Source: Candidatus Nanohalobium sp.
GTDB lineage: Archaea > Nanohalarchaeota > Nanosalinia > Nanosalinales > Nanosalinaceae
Direction of reading: 5' to 3'
NCBI GenBank assembly: GCA_042217555.1
Contig: JBDGSL010000033.1
Span: forward strand, 865 to 64,864
Length of the DNA: 64,000 nt
In this document: positions 23,698-61,002 of the stretch, piece by piece
Layout: each line of letters begins with the position of its first letter
How positions within the stretch are numbered: the stretch's first letter is position 1
The notes under the pieces: model-generated
What the model was told of the DNA's origin: nothing
The model's database searches: none
Seen by the model: the letters and a program-made list of their open reading frames with translations, nothing else
Made by a program: the position numbers and the translations under genes

Positions 23698-23882
23698 TGC
23701 GGGAGGCAGGATTTGAACCTGCGAACCCTCTAGGGGACAGCGCATTTCCCGTTGACTTGAAAACACTTCTGTGTTTTCTGCGAACCGGTTTCCTGGATGG
23801 AATCGGTGTCTCAAACCTCTGTCTCTTGGTGGAGAAAGAGGTGTCCTGAACGCTGCGCCTTTGACCACTTGGCGACTCCCGC
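23698..23882 (-). tRNA. tRNA-Leu(CAG) with 101-nt intron (23744-23844) at 37/38
   Basis: GCGGGAG/CTCCCGC acceptor, CAGCG-TTCAGG|G-CGCTG anticodon arm, long variable arm, GGTTCAAATCC T-arm; mature 84 nt. Confidence 0.93.
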
Positions 23883-23908
23883 CTGGTTGTCTTTTACCGG
23901 GCTGATTC

Positions 23909-23914
23909 TTATAA
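23909..23914 (-). promoter_or_regulatory. TATA box of tRNA-Leu
   Basis: TTATAA 27-32 nt upstream of the tRNA 5' end. Confidence 0.5.
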
Positions 23915-23927
23915 GTAGCTGGTTAAG

Positions 23928-24070
23928 CGAGCCTGGAGGGATTTGAACCCTCGACCCCGAGGTATTTCCAACAGTTGAGAATGGAAGATTGAGGCCTTGT
24001 TGGATGTGAAGTGGTAGCGGTTTTTCCAGGTTTAGGAACCTCGTGCTCTGTCCAGCTGAGCTACAGGCTC
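23928..24070 (-). tRNA. tRNA-Arg(CCT) with 69-nt intron (23964-24032) at 37/38
   Basis: GAGCCTG/CAGGCTC acceptor, CGAGG-TTCCTA|A-CCTCG; TTCC/GGAA BHB central helix; mature 74 nt. Confidence 0.93.
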
Positions 24071-24124
24071 TTGTATTGGTTCTCTGTGGAGGTTATAGTT
24101 AAGAAACATGAGAGAAAGAGGTTT

Positions 24125-24370
24125 TTACTCTTCGTCCTCTACGAGTGCTTCTATCTGGAATGTTTTCTGGCACTGTGGGTATCCCTGGCATCCCCAGAAG
24201 AAGCCGTATCGTCCTTCCTTTATCTTCATGGGCATTCCACACTCCGGACATGCGACTTCTCTCGGTGCCTTGTCCTTGTGTTTGCTGCAGACAGGTTGAC
24301 CGGCAGAGTTCTTGGTGGTTGCGTTCTCCCCGCAGAAAACGCACTTTGTCATCTTGGTTTCCTTTGCCAT
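24125..24370 (-). CDS. small Zn-finger protein (topoisomerase C4 Zn-ribbon-like)
   Basis: CVFC..CSKH..CPECG..GRYGFFWGCQGYPQC. Confidence 0.8.
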   Translation of the reverse strand: MAKETKMTKCVFCGENATTKNSAGQPVCSKHKDKAPREVACPECGMPMKIKEGRYGFFWGCQGYPQCQKTFQIEALVEDEE

Positions 24371-24414
24371 GGAAAATGTAAAGAAGTGAGAAAGTTACTT
24401 AACCGTACGTGTTT

Positions 24415-25338
24415 TTACCCGGACTTCTGTTTTTTCACGTAGTCAGCGGCGTTCAGTCCGGCCTGACAGCCTTCTCCGGCTGAGACCTGTACCTGCTGTA
24501 CACCCCTGTTATTAACATCTCCTGCCGAGTAAAGTCCTTCTACACCTGTCTCCATCTCTTTGTTGACTTTGATCCGGCCTGATTCATCTTTCTCCACGAG
24601 ATCTGTGATATCGGAGTTAGGGACCGTACCTATCTCTACAAAGGCAGCCTTGACATCCAGCTCTTTCATCTCTCCTCTGTGGTCATACTTGACACCTTCC
24701 AGGAACTCATCGCCGTAGAACTCTTCAGCGGTTGCTTCACGGATAACCTCGACATTTTCATCTTCTTCTACTTTCTCAATCGTCACGTGCTCTCCCTTCA
24801 GTTCCCCGGAACGGGAGAGAAGAAACACTTTCTCTGCGATATCAGAAAGATAGTCCGCGGCCTCAGTACCGGCGTAACCACCGCCGATCACCGCAACCCG
24901 ATCTCCCTGATAGAGAGGGCCATCACAGACAGCACAGTAGCCAACCCCCTTATTAGCAAACTCTTCTTCACCAGGAACCCCAAGTTTTCTCCTGTGACCT
25001 CCAGTAGCAATAATCACTGCATGAGACCTGAAAACCTTGCCGTCACTTCTTTCAACCTCGAAAACACCGTCCTCACGGCAGATATCAACAACCCTGTAAC
25101 CGGTCTTCTCCTCAACATCATAGTCACGCATATGTTCAAGGAACCTATCCGCCAGGTCAGGCCCGGAAACACTCTTGAAACCAAGATAGTTCTCAACTTT
25201 TTCAGTATTATTCAACTGCCCGCCGTACTCATCCGCTACAACCGTCACGTCCACACCTGAACGTGAAGCATAAATCGCAGCAGACTGAGCCGCCGAAGCA
25301 CCACCAACAACAATCAAATCACGAACATCTTCACTCAT
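24415..25338 (-). CDS. trxB: thioredoxin reductase
   Basis: IVVGGASAAQSAA, GVGYCAVCDG, VIGGGYAG, GLYSAGD; ATG 25338 chosen as start. Confidence 0.9.
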   Translation of the reverse strand: MSEDVRDLIVVGGASAAQSAAIYASRSGVDVTVVADEYGGQLNNTEKVENYLGFKSVSGPDLADRFLEHMRDYDVEEKTGYRVVDICREDGVFEVERSDGKVFRSHAVIIATGGHRRKLGVPGEEEFANKGVGYCAVCDGPLYQGDRVAVIGGGYAGTEAADYLSDIAEKVFLLSRSGELKGEHVTIEKVEEDENVEVIREATAEEFYGDEFLEGVKYDHRGEMKELDVKAAFVEIGTVPNSDITDLVEKDESGRIKVNKEMETGVEGLYSAGDVNNRGVQQVQVSAGEGCQAGLNAADYVKKQKSG

Positions 25339-58876: not shown

Positions 58877-59063
58877 AAGTAAATCACGTTAAACTGTAAC
58901 AAAAAAGAAAAAGTTGAAACTTAAAAAGTCGACATTGATATCGCCCTCGCGTATCAAACACAAACCAACAGATAATAGAAAAAGAAATTTTTCTGAGACT
59001 CTTACAGACCTCCAGGAATAGGGCGCTTCTACTTATTGACCTTTTTCATGCCTCTGATTTCAA

Positions 59064-59381
59064 CTAATCTACGTTCAAGTCTCTGAGTCTTTTCTCTACT
59101 TCTTTCAGATCTTCTCTGCTGTAGGCGTAGTCTCTGTGCCTGACTGCGAATACTGTTAGTTCTGAGTCTACGAAGTCGAAGTAGATTCTGTGGTTGAAGT
59201 TGTTTTCCGTCAGTTTTAGCCTATGGAATTCTATGCCGAACTGCGGTTTGTGGATGTAGCTGATCTTGTCCTGATCTCTGTCTTCTCCTAATCTTTCTTC
59301 TACGTGATCAAGGAGGCCTTCTCTCGTTTCCAGTTCAAACCCTTTCAGGTCCTGTTTGGCCTCTGAGGTTATTTCGACCAT
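59064..59381 (-). CDS. RelE/ParE-like toxin
   Basis: VEITSEAKQDLK..HRLKL..HRIYF..VFAVRHRD.AY. Confidence 0.7.
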   Translation of the reverse strand: MVEITSEAKQDLKGFELETREGLLDHVEERLGEDRDQDKISYIHKPQFGIEFHRLKLTENNFNHRIYFDFVDSELTVFAVRHRDYAYSREDLKEVEKRLRDLNVD

Positions 59382-59620
59382 TATGTAATCTCCTCTCTGA
59401 CTTCTTCCAAGGACTGAGTCTCTACATCTCCCTGCTTGAGTTTGATAGCCCGGAGCAGCAGTTCAGGATCTATCTCATTGTCCTCTTCTATCTTCTCTCT
59501 CAGAGCCTGTCGGATGTACTCTGAAGGACTCTTGAAATTCTTTCTCTCAGCAGTCTCCTTTATCTCATCTTTCAGTCCTTCCGGAACATCCACACTTATT
59601 CTTGCCATCTCAAATCCCAC
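59381..59620 (-). CDS. ribbon-helix-helix (CopG-like) antitoxin
   Basis: RISVDVPEGLKDEIK..FKSPSEYIRQALRE; 1-nt overlap with the toxin gene. Confidence 0.8.
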   Translation of the reverse strand: MGFEMARISVDVPEGLKDEIKETAERKNFKSPSEYIRQALREKIEEDNEIDPELLLRAIKLKQGDVETQSLEEVREEIT

Positions 59621-59689
59621 CTCTTATATGATGCCAGTGTGAGAAAGATATTAAAATCTTGGTGTTATGTGTCGGGTTCCTTCAGCTCG

Positions 59690-60424
59690 AGATTTCCTTC
59701 ATCGCTGATTTTCCACTCGAGTTCCTGGCCTCCAGGAAGATCCACAGAGTTCAGATGTGAACTACCTCAACCTAACTCGCTCAAGCTGACGCTTTCGCTT
59801 CGTGAGGAAGGGGCTTGTCAGTGAACTCTTCTCCTAACCCATGACTGGGTAGGCGGTGTGGTCGCCGTTCAGATTCACCGTTCCTGACTTCAGAGCCAGT
59901 TGACCGTGGCTCTTCCACATCTTCCACAGCTCTACCTATTATGCTGTAGGCGGCGTTGTAGCTCATCTGATTTTCGTAACTAGATCTGAAGATGTATGCG
60001 TCAGGATCAGTCCTTTTCCAAAACACTGTAGTCGAGAAAAAGTCTGTAAGGCGTTCTCCATCTATATATTCCCGCTTGCTTTCCAGGAAGTCGCCGCACA
60101 TTTTCTTCAAGGCCTTCTTGTACTCCATTTTAGTACGGTCACTTAGTTCTCTATCCCTGATTCTGTCCTTGTTTATACCAGCTACTAGATCGGTCATGTT
60201 GTCCTTGAGGTCTCATCTATTTTCCAGGAGATATGTTCGGTGAACCTCTTCCAGGCATAGAGATATCTTGATATCCTGTCTATGGAAAGTCCCTGAACAT
60301 CCAGAAATCTCTTGAACTACGTTATAATCTCTTTATTATGGTCTTGGATTCTGCTGGACTCTTCTATAGCTTTTAGAGTGTTCTCGATCTTGTCTTTTCG
60401 GCTGTGGATGTCGCCTTGACTCAT
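59690..60424 (-). pseudogene. decayed tyrosine integrase
   Basis: ATG 60424, TAG at codon 36, frameshift, deletions; SDRTKMEYKKALKK and DPDAYIF match SAKTKMEYKSAIKR and NPDAYLF of the 22239-23585 integrase. Confidence 0.8.
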
Positions 60425-60482
60425 GTTTCTCAGTTCTCCACCCACTTTTAGTTGTGACCGAATTATCTTTCAGAAATGATTA

Positions 60483-60800
60483 CGCCGGCGCCCGGATTAC
60501 TGAACGAACTGCCAGACGAAGCAGTTCACAGTTCTAAAAAAGAAACCTGAAAGCCATGACTTTTGCATGGCTTCTTGCGTGTGTTGAAGACCGGATGGTC
60601 TTCTGCTCAAGAAGATCAGTTGCCTGATCTTCGGGAACTCAGCGTCGAAGACTTCGTCGGAAGTCTTCTCGAAGCAGATCCGGAGATCTGCGGTAACGAG
60701 TTCGCCGGCGCCCGGATTTGAACCCGAAGCTCGCCGCACCGGGAGGTTCTCACATCAAATCCAAGCTTAGGCGTGAAACGCCGGCGCCCGGATTTGAACC
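60483..60800. repeat. three copies of the tRNA-Ser 3' end bracketing a six-hairpin cassette
   Basis: CGCCGGCGCCCGGATTTGAACC at 60779-60800 and 60703-60724; 16 bp of it at 60483-60498. Confidence 0.88.
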
Positions 60801-61002
60801 GGGGAGGGACGGGTATGTCCCAGCAGATACTTCGGAAACTTCTGAAAGTTTCATCATCATAAACCGCACTCCGCCTTGCTCCGGCGGCTTCCGGTTTACT
60901 CTGCGCATCTGCCGAAAGCCATGCATCGCATGGTTTGACATGATCGAACTTTGTGAAGTTCGCTCGAATCTGCCGCGTTCAGCCAGACTCTGCCACGCCG
61001 GC
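60779..61002 (-). tRNA. tRNA-Ser(CGA) with 134-nt intron (60829-60962) at 37/38
   Basis: GCCGGCG/CGCCGGC acceptor, GCAGA-TTCGAG|A-TCTGC, long variable arm GGGAC/GTCCC; TTCG/CGAA BHB helix; mature 90 nt. Confidence 0.92.

What the first reader, a model, noticed from the sequence alone, without database searches (positions are those of the whole stretch)
23698..61002. All four tRNA genes carry long canonical-position introns with relaxed BHB motifs
Seen: Leu(CAG) 101 nt, Arg(CCT) 69 nt, Gly(GCC) 60 nt and Ser(CGA) 134 nt, all at 37/38 and all ending NNAA-RT. The central helix is perfect in three; the outer helix is only ~1 bp in Leu, Arg and Gly. Established: Halobacteria typically have very few tRNA introns (e.g. 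Trp, Met), and relaxed BHBs are associated with broad-specificity (alpha-beta)2 or epsilon2 endonucleases. Inference: an intron expansion in this lineage. tRNA finders may miss or mis-call these genes.
Basis: partly seen in the sequence, partly recalled or inferred. Interest (0 to 1): 0.72.

Follow-up and report, generated by a model that had tools for sequence, protein, structure and literature searches.

The report
Intron-riddled tRNA genes of a nanohaloarchaeon
All four tRNA genes in this window, and about four in five in the genome of this tiny salt-loving DPANN archaeon (genus Nanohalobium), are split by archaeal splicing-type introns with a loosened recognition motif: a real and extreme case of a phenomenon already described for DPANN archaea.

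Summary
Leu(CAG), Arg(CCT), Gly(GCC) and Ser(CGA) carry introns of 101, 69, 60 and 134 nt at position 37/38. The 4-bp central helix is perfect in three, and the intron-side helix is 1 bp in three.

- The organism is not a haloarchaeon. It is a Nanohaloarchaeota MAG in the same GTDB genus as Ca. Nanohalobium constans.
- The intron expansion is real and genome-wide: about 33-35 of 41-42 tRNA genes, against 21 of 38 in N. constans and 4/38 and 15/39 published for other nanohaloarchaea.
- Introns are being gained and replaced inside the genus. The Ser(CGA) intron was seen in this genome only.
- The enzyme is not (alpha-beta)2 or epsilon2. It is a single alpha4-type EndA carrying the DPANN "L3" loop, which Kaneta et al. 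2018 linked to raised tRNA disruption.
- Default tRNA finders do fail here.

Three extras came up.
- This EndA clade has Ala where the canonical catalytic Lys sits, and an invariant Lys in L3. The scan noted this before in Aenigmatarchaeota.
- Introns share hairpin modules with tRNA trailers and intergenic arrays.
- The initiator tRNA has two introns.

Verdict: new member of a known kind, moderate interest.

The parts
23698..23882 (-). tRNA-Leu(CAG) gene. 5' exon 23845-23882, intron 23744-23844 (101 nt, at 37/38), 3' exon 23698-23743.
   Evidence: ARAGORN -i. BHB scoring gives H3 h6 h'1. The spliced product is accepted as Leu(CAG). It is the only copy in the genome. The Rfam tRNA model misses it.
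23928..24070 (-). tRNA-Arg(CCT) gene. 5' exon 24033-24070, intron 23964-24032 (69 nt), 3' exon 23928-23963.
   Evidence: Rfam RF00005, 53.1 bits, E 1.4e-8, with a 71-nt insert. BHB H4 h5 h'1. Orthologues carry introns in G002, G004 and G009 and none in G001. Only copy in the genome.
25653..25784 (+). tRNA-Gly(GCC) gene. 5' exon 25653-25689, intron 25690-25749 (60 nt), 3' exon 25750-25784.
   Evidence: Rfam RF00005, 44.5 bits. BHB H4 h6 h'1. Syntenic orthologues are intronless in G001, G003 and G004. A contiguous (intronless) match also exists in G009, at a non-syntenic place. G002 has a different 30-nt intron. Only copy in the genome.
60780..61002 (-). tRNA-Ser(CGA) gene. 5' exon 60963-61002, intron 60829-60962 (134 nt), 3' exon 60780-60828.
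   Evidence: ARAGORN -i mis-calls it Arg(TCT). The BHB-guided junction (H4 h7 h'3) gives a class-II Ser(CGA). Orthologues are contiguous in G002, G003, G004, G009 and G013. Only copy in the genome.
60703..60724 (-). Orphan 22-nt copy of the tRNA-Ser(CGA) 3' end (T arm plus acceptor strand), 55 nt downstream of the gene. It looks like an att-type remnant.
   Evidence: Exact duplicate of 60779-60800. Similar orphan tRNA 3' ends lie behind many tRNA genes of the genome.
25779..26104 (+). Hairpin-module array behind tRNA-Gly. It is bounded by two copies of the tRNA 3' end plus the trailer TAAGGTTACGCTCTTATATCGCAATAA. It holds the module AACTTCTGAAAGTT..ATCATCATAA, which also occurs in the Ser(CGA) intron at 60837-60862.
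   Evidence: The same trailer follows tRNA-Glu(TTC) on another contig.

Best explanation
These are the only, and therefore functional, genes for tRNA-Leu(CAG), Arg(CCT), Gly(GCC) and Ser(CGA) of a Nanohaloarchaeota archaeon (genus Nanohalobium). Each is interrupted between nucleotides 37 and 38 by an archaeal enzymatic (bulge-helix-bulge type) intron.

In the precursor, the anticodon stem, a 3-nt bulge holding the 3' splice site and a 4-bp helix between bases 32-35 and the intron's last NNAA are kept. The helix that should close the 5' splice-site bulge from the intron side is mostly missing. That makes the motif hBH or bulge-helix-loop-like, with the 5' site in a junction beside intron hairpins.

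The introns are cut out by the genome's single alpha4-type EndA and the exons are joined by RtcB. This EndA carries the DPANN L3 insertion between catalytic Tyr and His.

The four genes are a sample of a genome-wide state: about 83% of tRNA genes have introns, a few of them at non-canonical places. This is the highest load among the sampled relatives. It was produced by recent intron gain, replacement and growth within the genus, on the background of an endonuclease that tolerates relaxed motifs.

Shown: gene structure, motif statistics, enzyme inventory, comparative gain and loss. Inferred: actual splicing, the homotetramer, broad specificity of the enzyme.
For: Gene models and junctions. The junctions are validated by intronless orthologues.

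Motif: H=4 in 23 of 30 introns, p about 1e-33. h' is 2 or more in only 10 of 30. A strict hBHBh' is present in 7 of 30. MFE folds show anticodon stem, 3' bulge and central helix, then a multiloop.

Genome-wide load: default ARAGORN finds 7 tRNAs and 42 with introns allowed. My own pipeline gives 7 intronless and 33 interrupted. The initiator tRNA resolves only with two introns, at about 29/30 and at 37/38.

Lineage: EndA relatives are Nanohaloarchaeota. G003, in the same genus, is 973,463 bp, the published size of Ca. Nanohalobium constans LC1Nh.

Relatives: N. constans has 17 intronless and 21 interrupted genes. Eleven genes are interrupted here but not there, and one the other way round. Intronless Rfam hits number 7 here against 11, 18, 21, 24 and 31 in five relatives. 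This genome has the fewest Rfam tRNA hits among the genomes that are at least 90% complete.

Enzymes: there is one EndA with N- and C-terminal Pfam domains. phmmer --max finds no paralogue. All closed relatives have one copy. The L3 insert aligns with those of N. equitans and ARMAN-2 EndA and is conserved across Nanohaloarchaeota and Aenigmatarchaeota. RtcB is present.

Against:
- The EndA has Ala at the position of the canonical catalytic Lys, so its chemistry is not simply that of studied alpha4 enzymes.
- No alpha4 enzyme has been shown experimentally to cut relaxed motifs.
- A few introns have only 2 of 4 pairs in the central helix or a shifted register (Leu-CAA, Leu-TAA, Arg-TCT, Asp-GTC), so their splice sites are less certain.
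- The genome is a 94%-complete MAG in 88 contigs, so an unassembled intronless copy cannot be strictly excluded.
Confidence: 0.85

Rival explanations
1. The 'introns' are primarily DNA-level insertions of a family of small mobile hairpin cassettes (MITE-like). These land in non-coding DNA, tRNA trailers and anticodon loops. They survive in tRNA genes only because the product happens to be excisable by EndA. On this view the expansion reflects cassette activity, not an RNA-level intron-spreading process. This concerns origin and is compatible with the main explanation.
For: - Intron modules recur in other introns in both orientations. Ser(CGA) against Leu(TAA) is 33 nt at 94% in reverse orientation. 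Trp against Ile(GAT) is also reversed.
- The same modules occur outside tRNA genes, in tRNA 3' trailers (GGTTACGCTC...ACGCAA) and in the array behind tRNA-Gly.
- The Ser(CGA) intron is unique to this genome and is built of such modules.
- Arg(TCG) carries unrelated intron types within one genus.
- Earlier first-reader notes on this window report the same cassettes, one with a target-site-like duplication in a protein gene. I did not check that.
Against: - No transposase, terminal inverted repeat or target-site duplication was shown at any intron.
- Insertion exactly at 37/38, together with an NNAA end matched to each anticodon loop, in 23 of 30 cases needs selection or an RNA-guided step.
- Hairpin stems differ between copies by compensatory changes, which speaks for conserved structure rather than recent copying.
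Confidence: 0.35
2. The interrupted loci are decaying pseudogenes, and the working tRNAs are intronless copies elsewhere or are supplied by the haloarchaeal host.
For: - The genome is 94% complete.
- Nanohaloarchaea are obligate symbionts (PMC10266531).
- The Arg(CCT) intron folds weakly (-14.9 kcal/mol).
Against: - Each isoacceptor is found only at its interrupted locus.
- About 35 genes would have to be pseudogenes at once.
- Exons are intact and 84-96% identical to intronless orthologues.
- The central helix is maintained far above chance.
- The closed N. constans genome likewise has 21 interrupted genes and no spare copies.
Confidence: 0.03
3. Excision needs a second, undetected endonuclease subunit (a divergent beta) or another nuclease. 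The enzyme would then really be of the (alpha-beta)2 kind.
For: - Relaxed motifs have so far been cut in vitro only by (alpha-beta)2 and epsilon2 enzymes (PMC5829648).
- The alpha subunit here lacks the canonical Lys.
Against: - No second EndA-like ORF appears at E up to 10 with phmmer --max on all ORFs of 50 aa or more.
- Seven closed genomes of the family have exactly one PF01974 match at E up to 0.1.
- The protein has both the N- and the C-terminal domain, like homotetrameric M. jannaschii EndA, which it matches over its full length.
Confidence: 0.07

Closest known systems
alpha4-type EndA with the L3 (Nanoarchaea/ARMAN-2-type) loop in DPANN archaea and the raised tRNA-gene disruption that goes with it (Kaneta et al. 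2018, NAR, PMC5829648; their survey included Nanohaloarchaea archaeon SG9)
   Same: - A single EndA gene of about 180 aa.
- An insertion of 7-8 residues between catalytic Tyr and His, at the place where N. equitans and ARMAN-2 EndA have theirs.
- Many interrupted tRNA genes, mostly at 37/38, with relaxed motifs.
   Different: - The load here, about 83% of genes, is far above the published nanohaloarchaeal counts of 4/38 and 15/39 (PMC10266531) and above N. constans at 21/38.
- The canonical catalytic Lys is Ala in this clade. In the text passages of that paper that I read, this substitution is not mentioned.
- Specificity of such an enzyme has not been tested experimentally.
[quoted passage not shown] 2008; Fujishima et al. 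2010; cited from my own knowledge, not read here)
   Same: - Most tRNA genes are interrupted.
- Relaxed motifs are common.
- Introns of different tRNAs share sequence.
- The Leu(CAG) intron's GGAA would fit a TTCC loop better than its own TTCA loop.
   Different: - The enzyme architecture is different: single alpha against alpha plus beta with the CSL/L1 loop.
- Here nearly all introns sit at 37/38 and are long (median 74 nt, up to 268 nt). Thermoproteales have many short introns at non-canonical places.
- The shared pieces here are hairpin modules that also occur outside tRNA genes.
Canonical euryarchaeal tRNA introns (for example the tRNA-Trp and tRNA-Met introns of Haloferax, cut by an alpha'2 EndA)
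   Same: - Position 37/38.
- A 4-bp central helix and a 3-nt 3' bulge.
- The Met intron is conserved between this genome and N. constans (89% over 83 nt).
- The Trp and Ser(CGA) introns hold C/D-box-like boxes (UGAUGA and CUGA flanking a hairpin).
- Fibrillarin and L7Ae are encoded.
   Different: - Those organisms have only a few such introns, with a strict hBHBh' motif.
- Here only 7 of 30 introns are strict.

Membership tests
Archaeal BHB (enzymatic) tRNA intron at the canonical position | The intron lies between nucleotides 37 and 38, and its removal yields a standard cloverleaf. | tested here: met
   All four spliced products are accepted by ARAGORN with the stated anticodons. The junctions are identical to intronless orthologues.
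Archaeal BHB (enzymatic) tRNA intron at the canonical position | A 4-bp central helix flanked by two 3-nt bulges that hold the splice sites. | tested here: met
   H is 4/4 in Arg, Gly and Ser and 3/4 in Leu. The 3' bulge of 3 nt lies next to the anticodon stem in all four. Genome-wide, 23 of 30 have H=4 (p about 1e-33).
Archaeal BHB (enzymatic) tRNA intron at the canonical position | Strict form hBHBh': an intron-side helix h' of at least 2 bp closes the 5' bulge. | tested here: not met
   h' is 1 bp in Leu, Arg and Gly and 3 bp in Ser. Genome-wide, h' is 2 or more in 10 of 30 and the strict motif is present in 7 of 30. The 5' site lies in a run of 2-4 unpaired nt beside a local hairpin in 22 of 30, against 55% of shuffled controls, which is only weak enrichment. 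They therefore belong to the relaxed hBH / BHL-like class.
Archaeal BHB (enzymatic) tRNA intron at the canonical position | Excised by EndA and ligated by RtcB in vivo. | not testable with these tools
   Both genes are present.
alpha4-type EndA (M. jannaschii type) | One gene of about 170-190 aa with an N-terminal and a catalytic C-terminal domain, and no second subunit gene. | tested here: met
   The ORF is 179-182 aa with PF02778 and PF01974. It matches 1A79 over its full length, E 1.3e-22. There is no paralogue. All closed relatives have one copy.
alpha4-type EndA (M. jannaschii type) | Catalytic triad Tyr-His-Lys (Y115, H125, K156 in M. jannaschii). | tested here: not met
   Tyr and His are conserved. 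The Lys position is Ala (NIRA against SVRK) in five independent PDB alignments, in all 77 L3-bearing sequences of Nanohaloarchaeota and Aenigmatarchaeota, and in their cluster representatives.
alpha4-type EndA (M. jannaschii type) | Homotetramer. | not testable with these tools
   Inferred only from the single-gene architecture.
L3-loop EndA of DPANN (Kaneta 2018) | An insertion in the C-terminal domain shared with N. equitans alpha and ARMAN-2 EndA. | tested here: met
   There are 16 residues between Tyr and His, against 9 in M. jannaschii. The insert aligns with those of 3IEY and 4FZ2. It is conserved, with an invariant Lys (G-x-K), across the clade.
The CSL/L1 or ASL/L2 loop in the N-terminal part. 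| tested here: not met
   There is no second EndA-like ORF. The protein is about 180 aa. There is no insertion at the L1/L2 place relative to M. jannaschii in the alignments.

The most novel reading that the evidence does not exclude
In the Nanohaloarchaeota and Aenigmatarchaeota EndA clade the catalytic lysine has moved. The canonical Lys of the Tyr-His-Lys triad is replaced by Ala or Ser. An invariant Lys in the L3 loop, which sits between Tyr and His, would then do its job. The same change would loosen substrate recognition. This rewired single-subunit enzyme is what permits the runaway, still ongoing gain of relaxed-motif introns seen at its extreme in this genome. New introns are assembled from mobile hairpin or K-turn-like modules that also populate tRNA trailers.
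Probability: 0.3. Interest if true: 0.7.

Novelty: new member of a known kind. Interest (0 to 1): 0.48.

Why it matters
- **Annotation.** Standard tRNA finders see 7 of about 42 tRNA genes in this genome. Completeness and codon-usage inferences for such MAGs will be wrong unless intron-aware searches are used.
- **The enzyme rule.** The genome is a clear counter-example to the rule that relaxed BHB motifs go with (alpha-beta)2 or epsilon2 endonucleases. It supports the newer view that inserted loops matter more than subunit architecture.
- **A system for studying intron gain.** One genus, which has a cultured member (Ca. Nanohalobium constans), holds genomes with 7 to 24 intronless tRNA genes. 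These include an intron seen in one genome only and unrelated introns at the same site. That makes the open question of how archaeal tRNA introns are gained approachable by comparison and experiment.
- **The enzyme itself.** The missing catalytic lysine makes it a worthwhile biochemical target.

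Tried and rejected
- **Other RNA families.** An Rfam scan at E up to 10 found no other family in or near the introns. The only other hits were chance-level.
- **A local hairpin standing in for h'.** I tested whether a hairpin starting right after the 5' bulge replaces the missing helix. The 5' site lies in a 2-4-nt unpaired run in 22 of 30 introns against 55% of shuffles. That is too weak to claim.
- **K-turn or k-junction.** The recurrent GGUU-NGA-GAAG...CUUC-GA hairpin next to the central helix could be read this way. 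It is plausible by eye, and L7Ae is encoded, but I left it as a lead because I ran no statistical or structural test.
- **Rejected ARAGORN -i calls.** BHB-guided splicing reassigns several of them.
  - Arg(TCT) at the Ser(CGA) locus.
  - 'Ser(CGA)' on C54, which is Ala(CGC).
  - 'Leu(CAG)' on C73, which is Ile(GAT).
  - 'tRNA-Stop' on C3, which is the initiator tRNA with two introns.
- **Unresolved.** A 329-nt candidate on C3 (minus strand) is probably not a tRNA. Glu(CTC), Asp(GTC) and Val(TAC) have uncertain junctions.
- **Protein searches.** The search for homologous proteins returned only close nanohaloarchaeal EndAs. The broader survey came from the representative search.
- **Structure prediction.** Not run, because the tool returns no coordinates and so could not place the L3 Lys relative to the active site.

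Full report
**What is in the window.** Default ARAGORN reports no tRNA in the 64 kb. The Rfam tRNA model finds two genes, each with a large insert in the anticodon loop: 23928-24070 (-) and 25653-25784 (+). With introns allowed, ARAGORN finds four: Leu(CAG), Arg(CCT), Gly(GCC) and a fourth that it calls Arg(TCT).

I scored every possible pair of splice sites for the strict bulge-helix-bulge geometry. In that geometry the cut falls after the second base of each 3-nt bulge, the two bulges are separated by 4 bp, helix h lies on the tRNA side and helix h' on the intron side. I then asked ARAGORN to accept the spliced product.

For the fourth gene the best solution by far is a 134-nt intron at 37/38 (H4, h7, h'3). 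The other three have H/h/h' of 3/6/1 (Leu), 4/5/1 (Arg) and 4/6/1 (Gly). Exact coordinates are in 'parts'.

**The junctions are right.** Close relatives hold intronless orthologues whose sequence across the junction equals the predicted spliced product.
- Gly(GCC) is intronless at the syntenic place in G001, G003 and G004. G009 also has a contiguous match.
- Arg(CCT) is intronless in G001.
- Ser(CGA) is contiguous in G002, G003, G004, G009 and G013, at 90-96% identity in the four shown.

Within this genome each of the four isoacceptors exists only at its interrupted locus.

**Which organism.** The genome is 1.31 Mb in 88 contigs with 45.8% G+C. Its EndA is 85% identical to that of a Candidatus Nanohalobium MAG. 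All close relatives are Nanohaloarchaeota, followed by Aenigmatarchaeota. The same-genus genome G003 is one contig of 973,463 bp. That is exactly the published size of Ca. Nanohalobium constans LC1Nh (bioRxiv 10.1101/794461). These are DPANN symbionts of haloarchaea.

**A genome-wide state.** ARAGORN finds 7 tRNA genes without introns and 42 with introns allowed. My own search worked from the T arm plus a matching acceptor stem, followed by BHB-guided splicing. It gave 41 candidates: 7 intronless, 33 interrupted and 1 unresolved that is probably spurious. The intronless ones are Pro-CGG (twice), Ser-GCT, Phe, His, Ala-GGC and Tyr.

Thirty introns at 37/38 are well resolved.
- Length is 56-268 nt, with a median of 74 nt.
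- The central helix is perfect in 23 of 30. Chance would give 2% (p about 1e-33). Because this helix pairs with bases 32-35, the intron end co-varies with the anticodon loop of each tRNA.
- h' reaches 2 bp in only 10 of 30.
- The strict hBHBh' motif is present in 7 of 30.

MFE folds show the anticodon stem, the 3' bulge and the central helix, then a multiloop with two to five intron hairpins.

A few genes need more than one intron. The initiator tRNA (C3:56919-57062) resolves only with two. One is a 32-nt intron at about 29/30 with a strict motif and the other a 38-nt intron at 37/38. The product is a textbook archaeal initiator. Gln(TTG) also needs two introns. In G002 the Leu(CAG) orthologue has a second intron in the D arm.

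**Comparison with relatives.** N. constans has 17 intronless and 21 interrupted genes by the same pipeline. Eleven genes are interrupted here but not there: Ser-GGA, Ser-CGA, Ser-TGA, Leu-TAA, Leu-TAG, Leu-GAG, Gly-GCC, Val-GAC, Glu-TTC, Thr-GGT and Pro-TGG. Only Pro-CGG goes the other way.

Intronless Rfam hits number 7 here against 11 (G002), 18 (G003), 24 (G001), 21 (G009) and 31 (G004). Among the genomes that are at least 90% complete, this one has the fewest Rfam tRNA hits, as expected if long introns hide the genes. Published counts for two cultured nanohaloarchaea are 15 of 39 and 4 of 38 (PMC10266531).

The four introns of the window differ in age.
- Ser(CGA): seen only in this genome.
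- Gly(GCC): only here and, with a different 30-nt sequence, in G002.
- Leu(CAG): here, in G002 and probably in G013.
- Arg(CCT): present in three genera and lost in G001.

Arg(TCG) carries one intron type in G000 and G003 and an unrelated, longer type in G001 and G002. The longer type resembles the Thr(CGT) intron of this genome. Gain, loss and replacement are therefore all going on within one genus.

**The enzyme.**
- **One gene, alpha4 architecture.** There is one EndA gene (G000 contig C3; 179-182 aa) with the N-terminal and catalytic Pfam domains. phmmer --max against all ORFs of 50 aa or more finds no second copy. Each of seven closed genomes of the family has exactly one match. By architecture it is the alpha4 type, and it aligns over its full length with M. 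jannaschii EndA (1A79, E 1.3e-22).
- **The L3 loop.** Between catalytic Tyr and His it has 16 residues where M. jannaschii has 9. The extra residues align with the insertions of N. equitans alpha (3IEY) and ARMAN-2 EndA (4FZ2). [quoted passage not shown] 2018. [quoted passage not shown] They concluded that subunit type matters less than loops (PMC5829648). The loop is conserved in all Nanohaloarchaeota and Aenigmatarchaeota sequences fetched and absent from Hydrothermarchaeota and others.
- **Other machinery.** RtcB is present. So are fibrillarin and L7Ae.
The expectation that relaxed BHB implies (alpha-beta)2 or epsilon2 does not hold here. The updated published picture does.

**An unexpected feature of the enzyme.** In all five PDB alignments the canonical catalytic Lys (K156 of M. 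jannaschii; motif SVRK) faces Ala (NIRA).
- All 77 L3-bearing sequences of Nanohaloarchaeota and Aenigmatarchaeota have Ala or Ser there.
- Of the eight sequences without L3 in that set, seven keep Lys at that position. The eighth, a Micrarchaeota sequence (L069), has Thr there (AIRTK).
- Among 150 cluster representatives, almost every catalytic domain with intact Tyr and His keeps the Lys. The NIR[AS] form is almost confined to the clade with a 15-16-residue loop that carries an invariant G-x-K. Two representatives with short loops (P0153, P0234) also lack the Lys. Forms with the long loop and the Lys also exist.

Earlier follow-ups of this scan noted the same substitution in Aenigmatarchaeota. 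I confirm it independently and extend it to Nanohaloarchaeota. That the loop Lys has taken over is an inference. I could not test it structurally.

**What the introns are made of.** The introns are not random sequence.
- **Modules shared between introns.** Modules recur between introns of different tRNAs, in both orientations. Ser(CGA) against Leu(TAA) is 33 nt at 94% in reverse orientation. Trp against Ile(GAT), Ser(CGA) and Thr(GGT) also match.
- **A module also found outside tRNA genes.** The module AACTTCTGAAAGTT-ATCATCA-hairpin occurs in four introns and at three non-tRNA places, one of them just behind tRNA-Gly in the window.
- **A module shared with tRNA trailers.** A second module is a short hairpin with loop GTTACGCT followed by ACGCAA. 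It starts several introns right after position 37. It also lies 6-9 nt behind the 3' end of five tRNA genes, tRNA-Gly(GCC) among them.
- **A GA-flanked hairpin.** A third recurrent piece is a GA-flanked hairpin (GGTT-NGA-GAAG...CTTC-GA) a few bases before the central-helix strand. It is conserved in orthologous Arg(CCT) introns of three genera and looks like a K-turn.
- **Intergenic hairpins and orphan tRNA ends.** Hairpins of the GAAAATC...GATTTTC kind number about 35, mostly intergenic and often near tRNA genes. Orphan copies of tRNA 3' ends lie behind many tRNA genes, including tRNA-Ser(CGA) at 60703-60724.
- **What this suggests.** Together these point to small structured cassettes that spread in non-coding DNA and feed intron growth and perhaps intron birth. 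First-reader notes on this window say the same. The mechanism remains open. I rate a DNA-level cassette origin at about one in three.

**Limits.**
- No transcript data could be examined.
- Junctions of Leu-CAA, Leu-TAA, Arg-TCT and Asp-GTC (central helix 2 of 4 or fewer) and of Glu-CTC and Val-TAC are uncertain.
- The test of whether a local hairpin replaces h' gave only weak enrichment.

**Verdict.** This is an extreme member of a known kind: DPANN genomes with an L3-bearing single-subunit EndA and many interrupted tRNA genes. Its useful extras are intron turnover within a genus that has a cultured member, and an endonuclease that lacks the canonical catalytic lysine.

Noticed in passing
G000 contig C3 (L001:1474-2022, minus strand); not in the window: The single EndA has Ala at the position of the canonical catalytic Lys (NIRA in place of SVRK) and an invariant Lys in the L3 loop. 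All 77 L3-bearing Nanohaloarchaeota and Aenigmatarchaeota sequences fetched share this. Of the eight sequences in that set without L3, seven keep the Lys; the exception is L069 (Micrarchaeota).
   Followed up: yes
window 25779-26104: Behind tRNA-Gly lies an array of hairpin modules. It is bounded by two copies of the tRNA 3' end plus a 27-nt trailer. A near-identical 60-nt trailer follows tRNA-Glu(TTC) on contig C37. One module matches the Ser(CGA) intron 35 kb away.
   Followed up: partly
window 60703-60724: A 22-nt exact copy of the tRNA-Ser(CGA) 3' end lies 55 nt downstream of the gene. At least ten similar orphan tRNA 3' ends lie behind other tRNA genes of the genome. They look like footprints of integrating elements.
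   Followed up: partly
G000 C3:56919-57062: The initiator tRNA-Met needs two introns: 32 nt at about 29/30 with a strict BHB, and 38 nt at 37/38. ARAGORN calls it a 'tRNA-Stop'. Gln(TTG) at C12:115150-115319 also needs two.
   Followed up: yes
L087/L093 (G002 contig C45), orthologue of the window's tRNA-Leu(CAG): This same-genus orthologue carries a second intron of about 126 nt in the D arm, in addition to the one at 37/38.
   Followed up: no
L088, L089, L087 (Arg-TCG of G003, G001, G002) and G000 C83:16180-16326: The same tRNA gene holds two unrelated intron types at 37/38 within one genus. The longer type resembles the Thr(CGT) intron of this genome, and its end pairs imperfectly with either anticodon loop.
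   Followed up: partly
G000 C12:82506-85223: The RtcB ligase lies in a 951-aa open frame. Its Pfam match is split by about 370 residues, the size of an intein.
   Followed up: no
introns of Gln, Gly(GCC), Trp, Met, Arg(TCG), Pro, Ser(TGA), and Arg(CCT) orthologues in L085 and L086: A recurrent GA-flanked hairpin (GGTT-NGA-GAAG...CTTC-GA) lies 1-4 nt before the central-helix strand. It has the look of a K-turn or k-junction. L7Ae and fibrillarin are encoded.
   Followed up: partly
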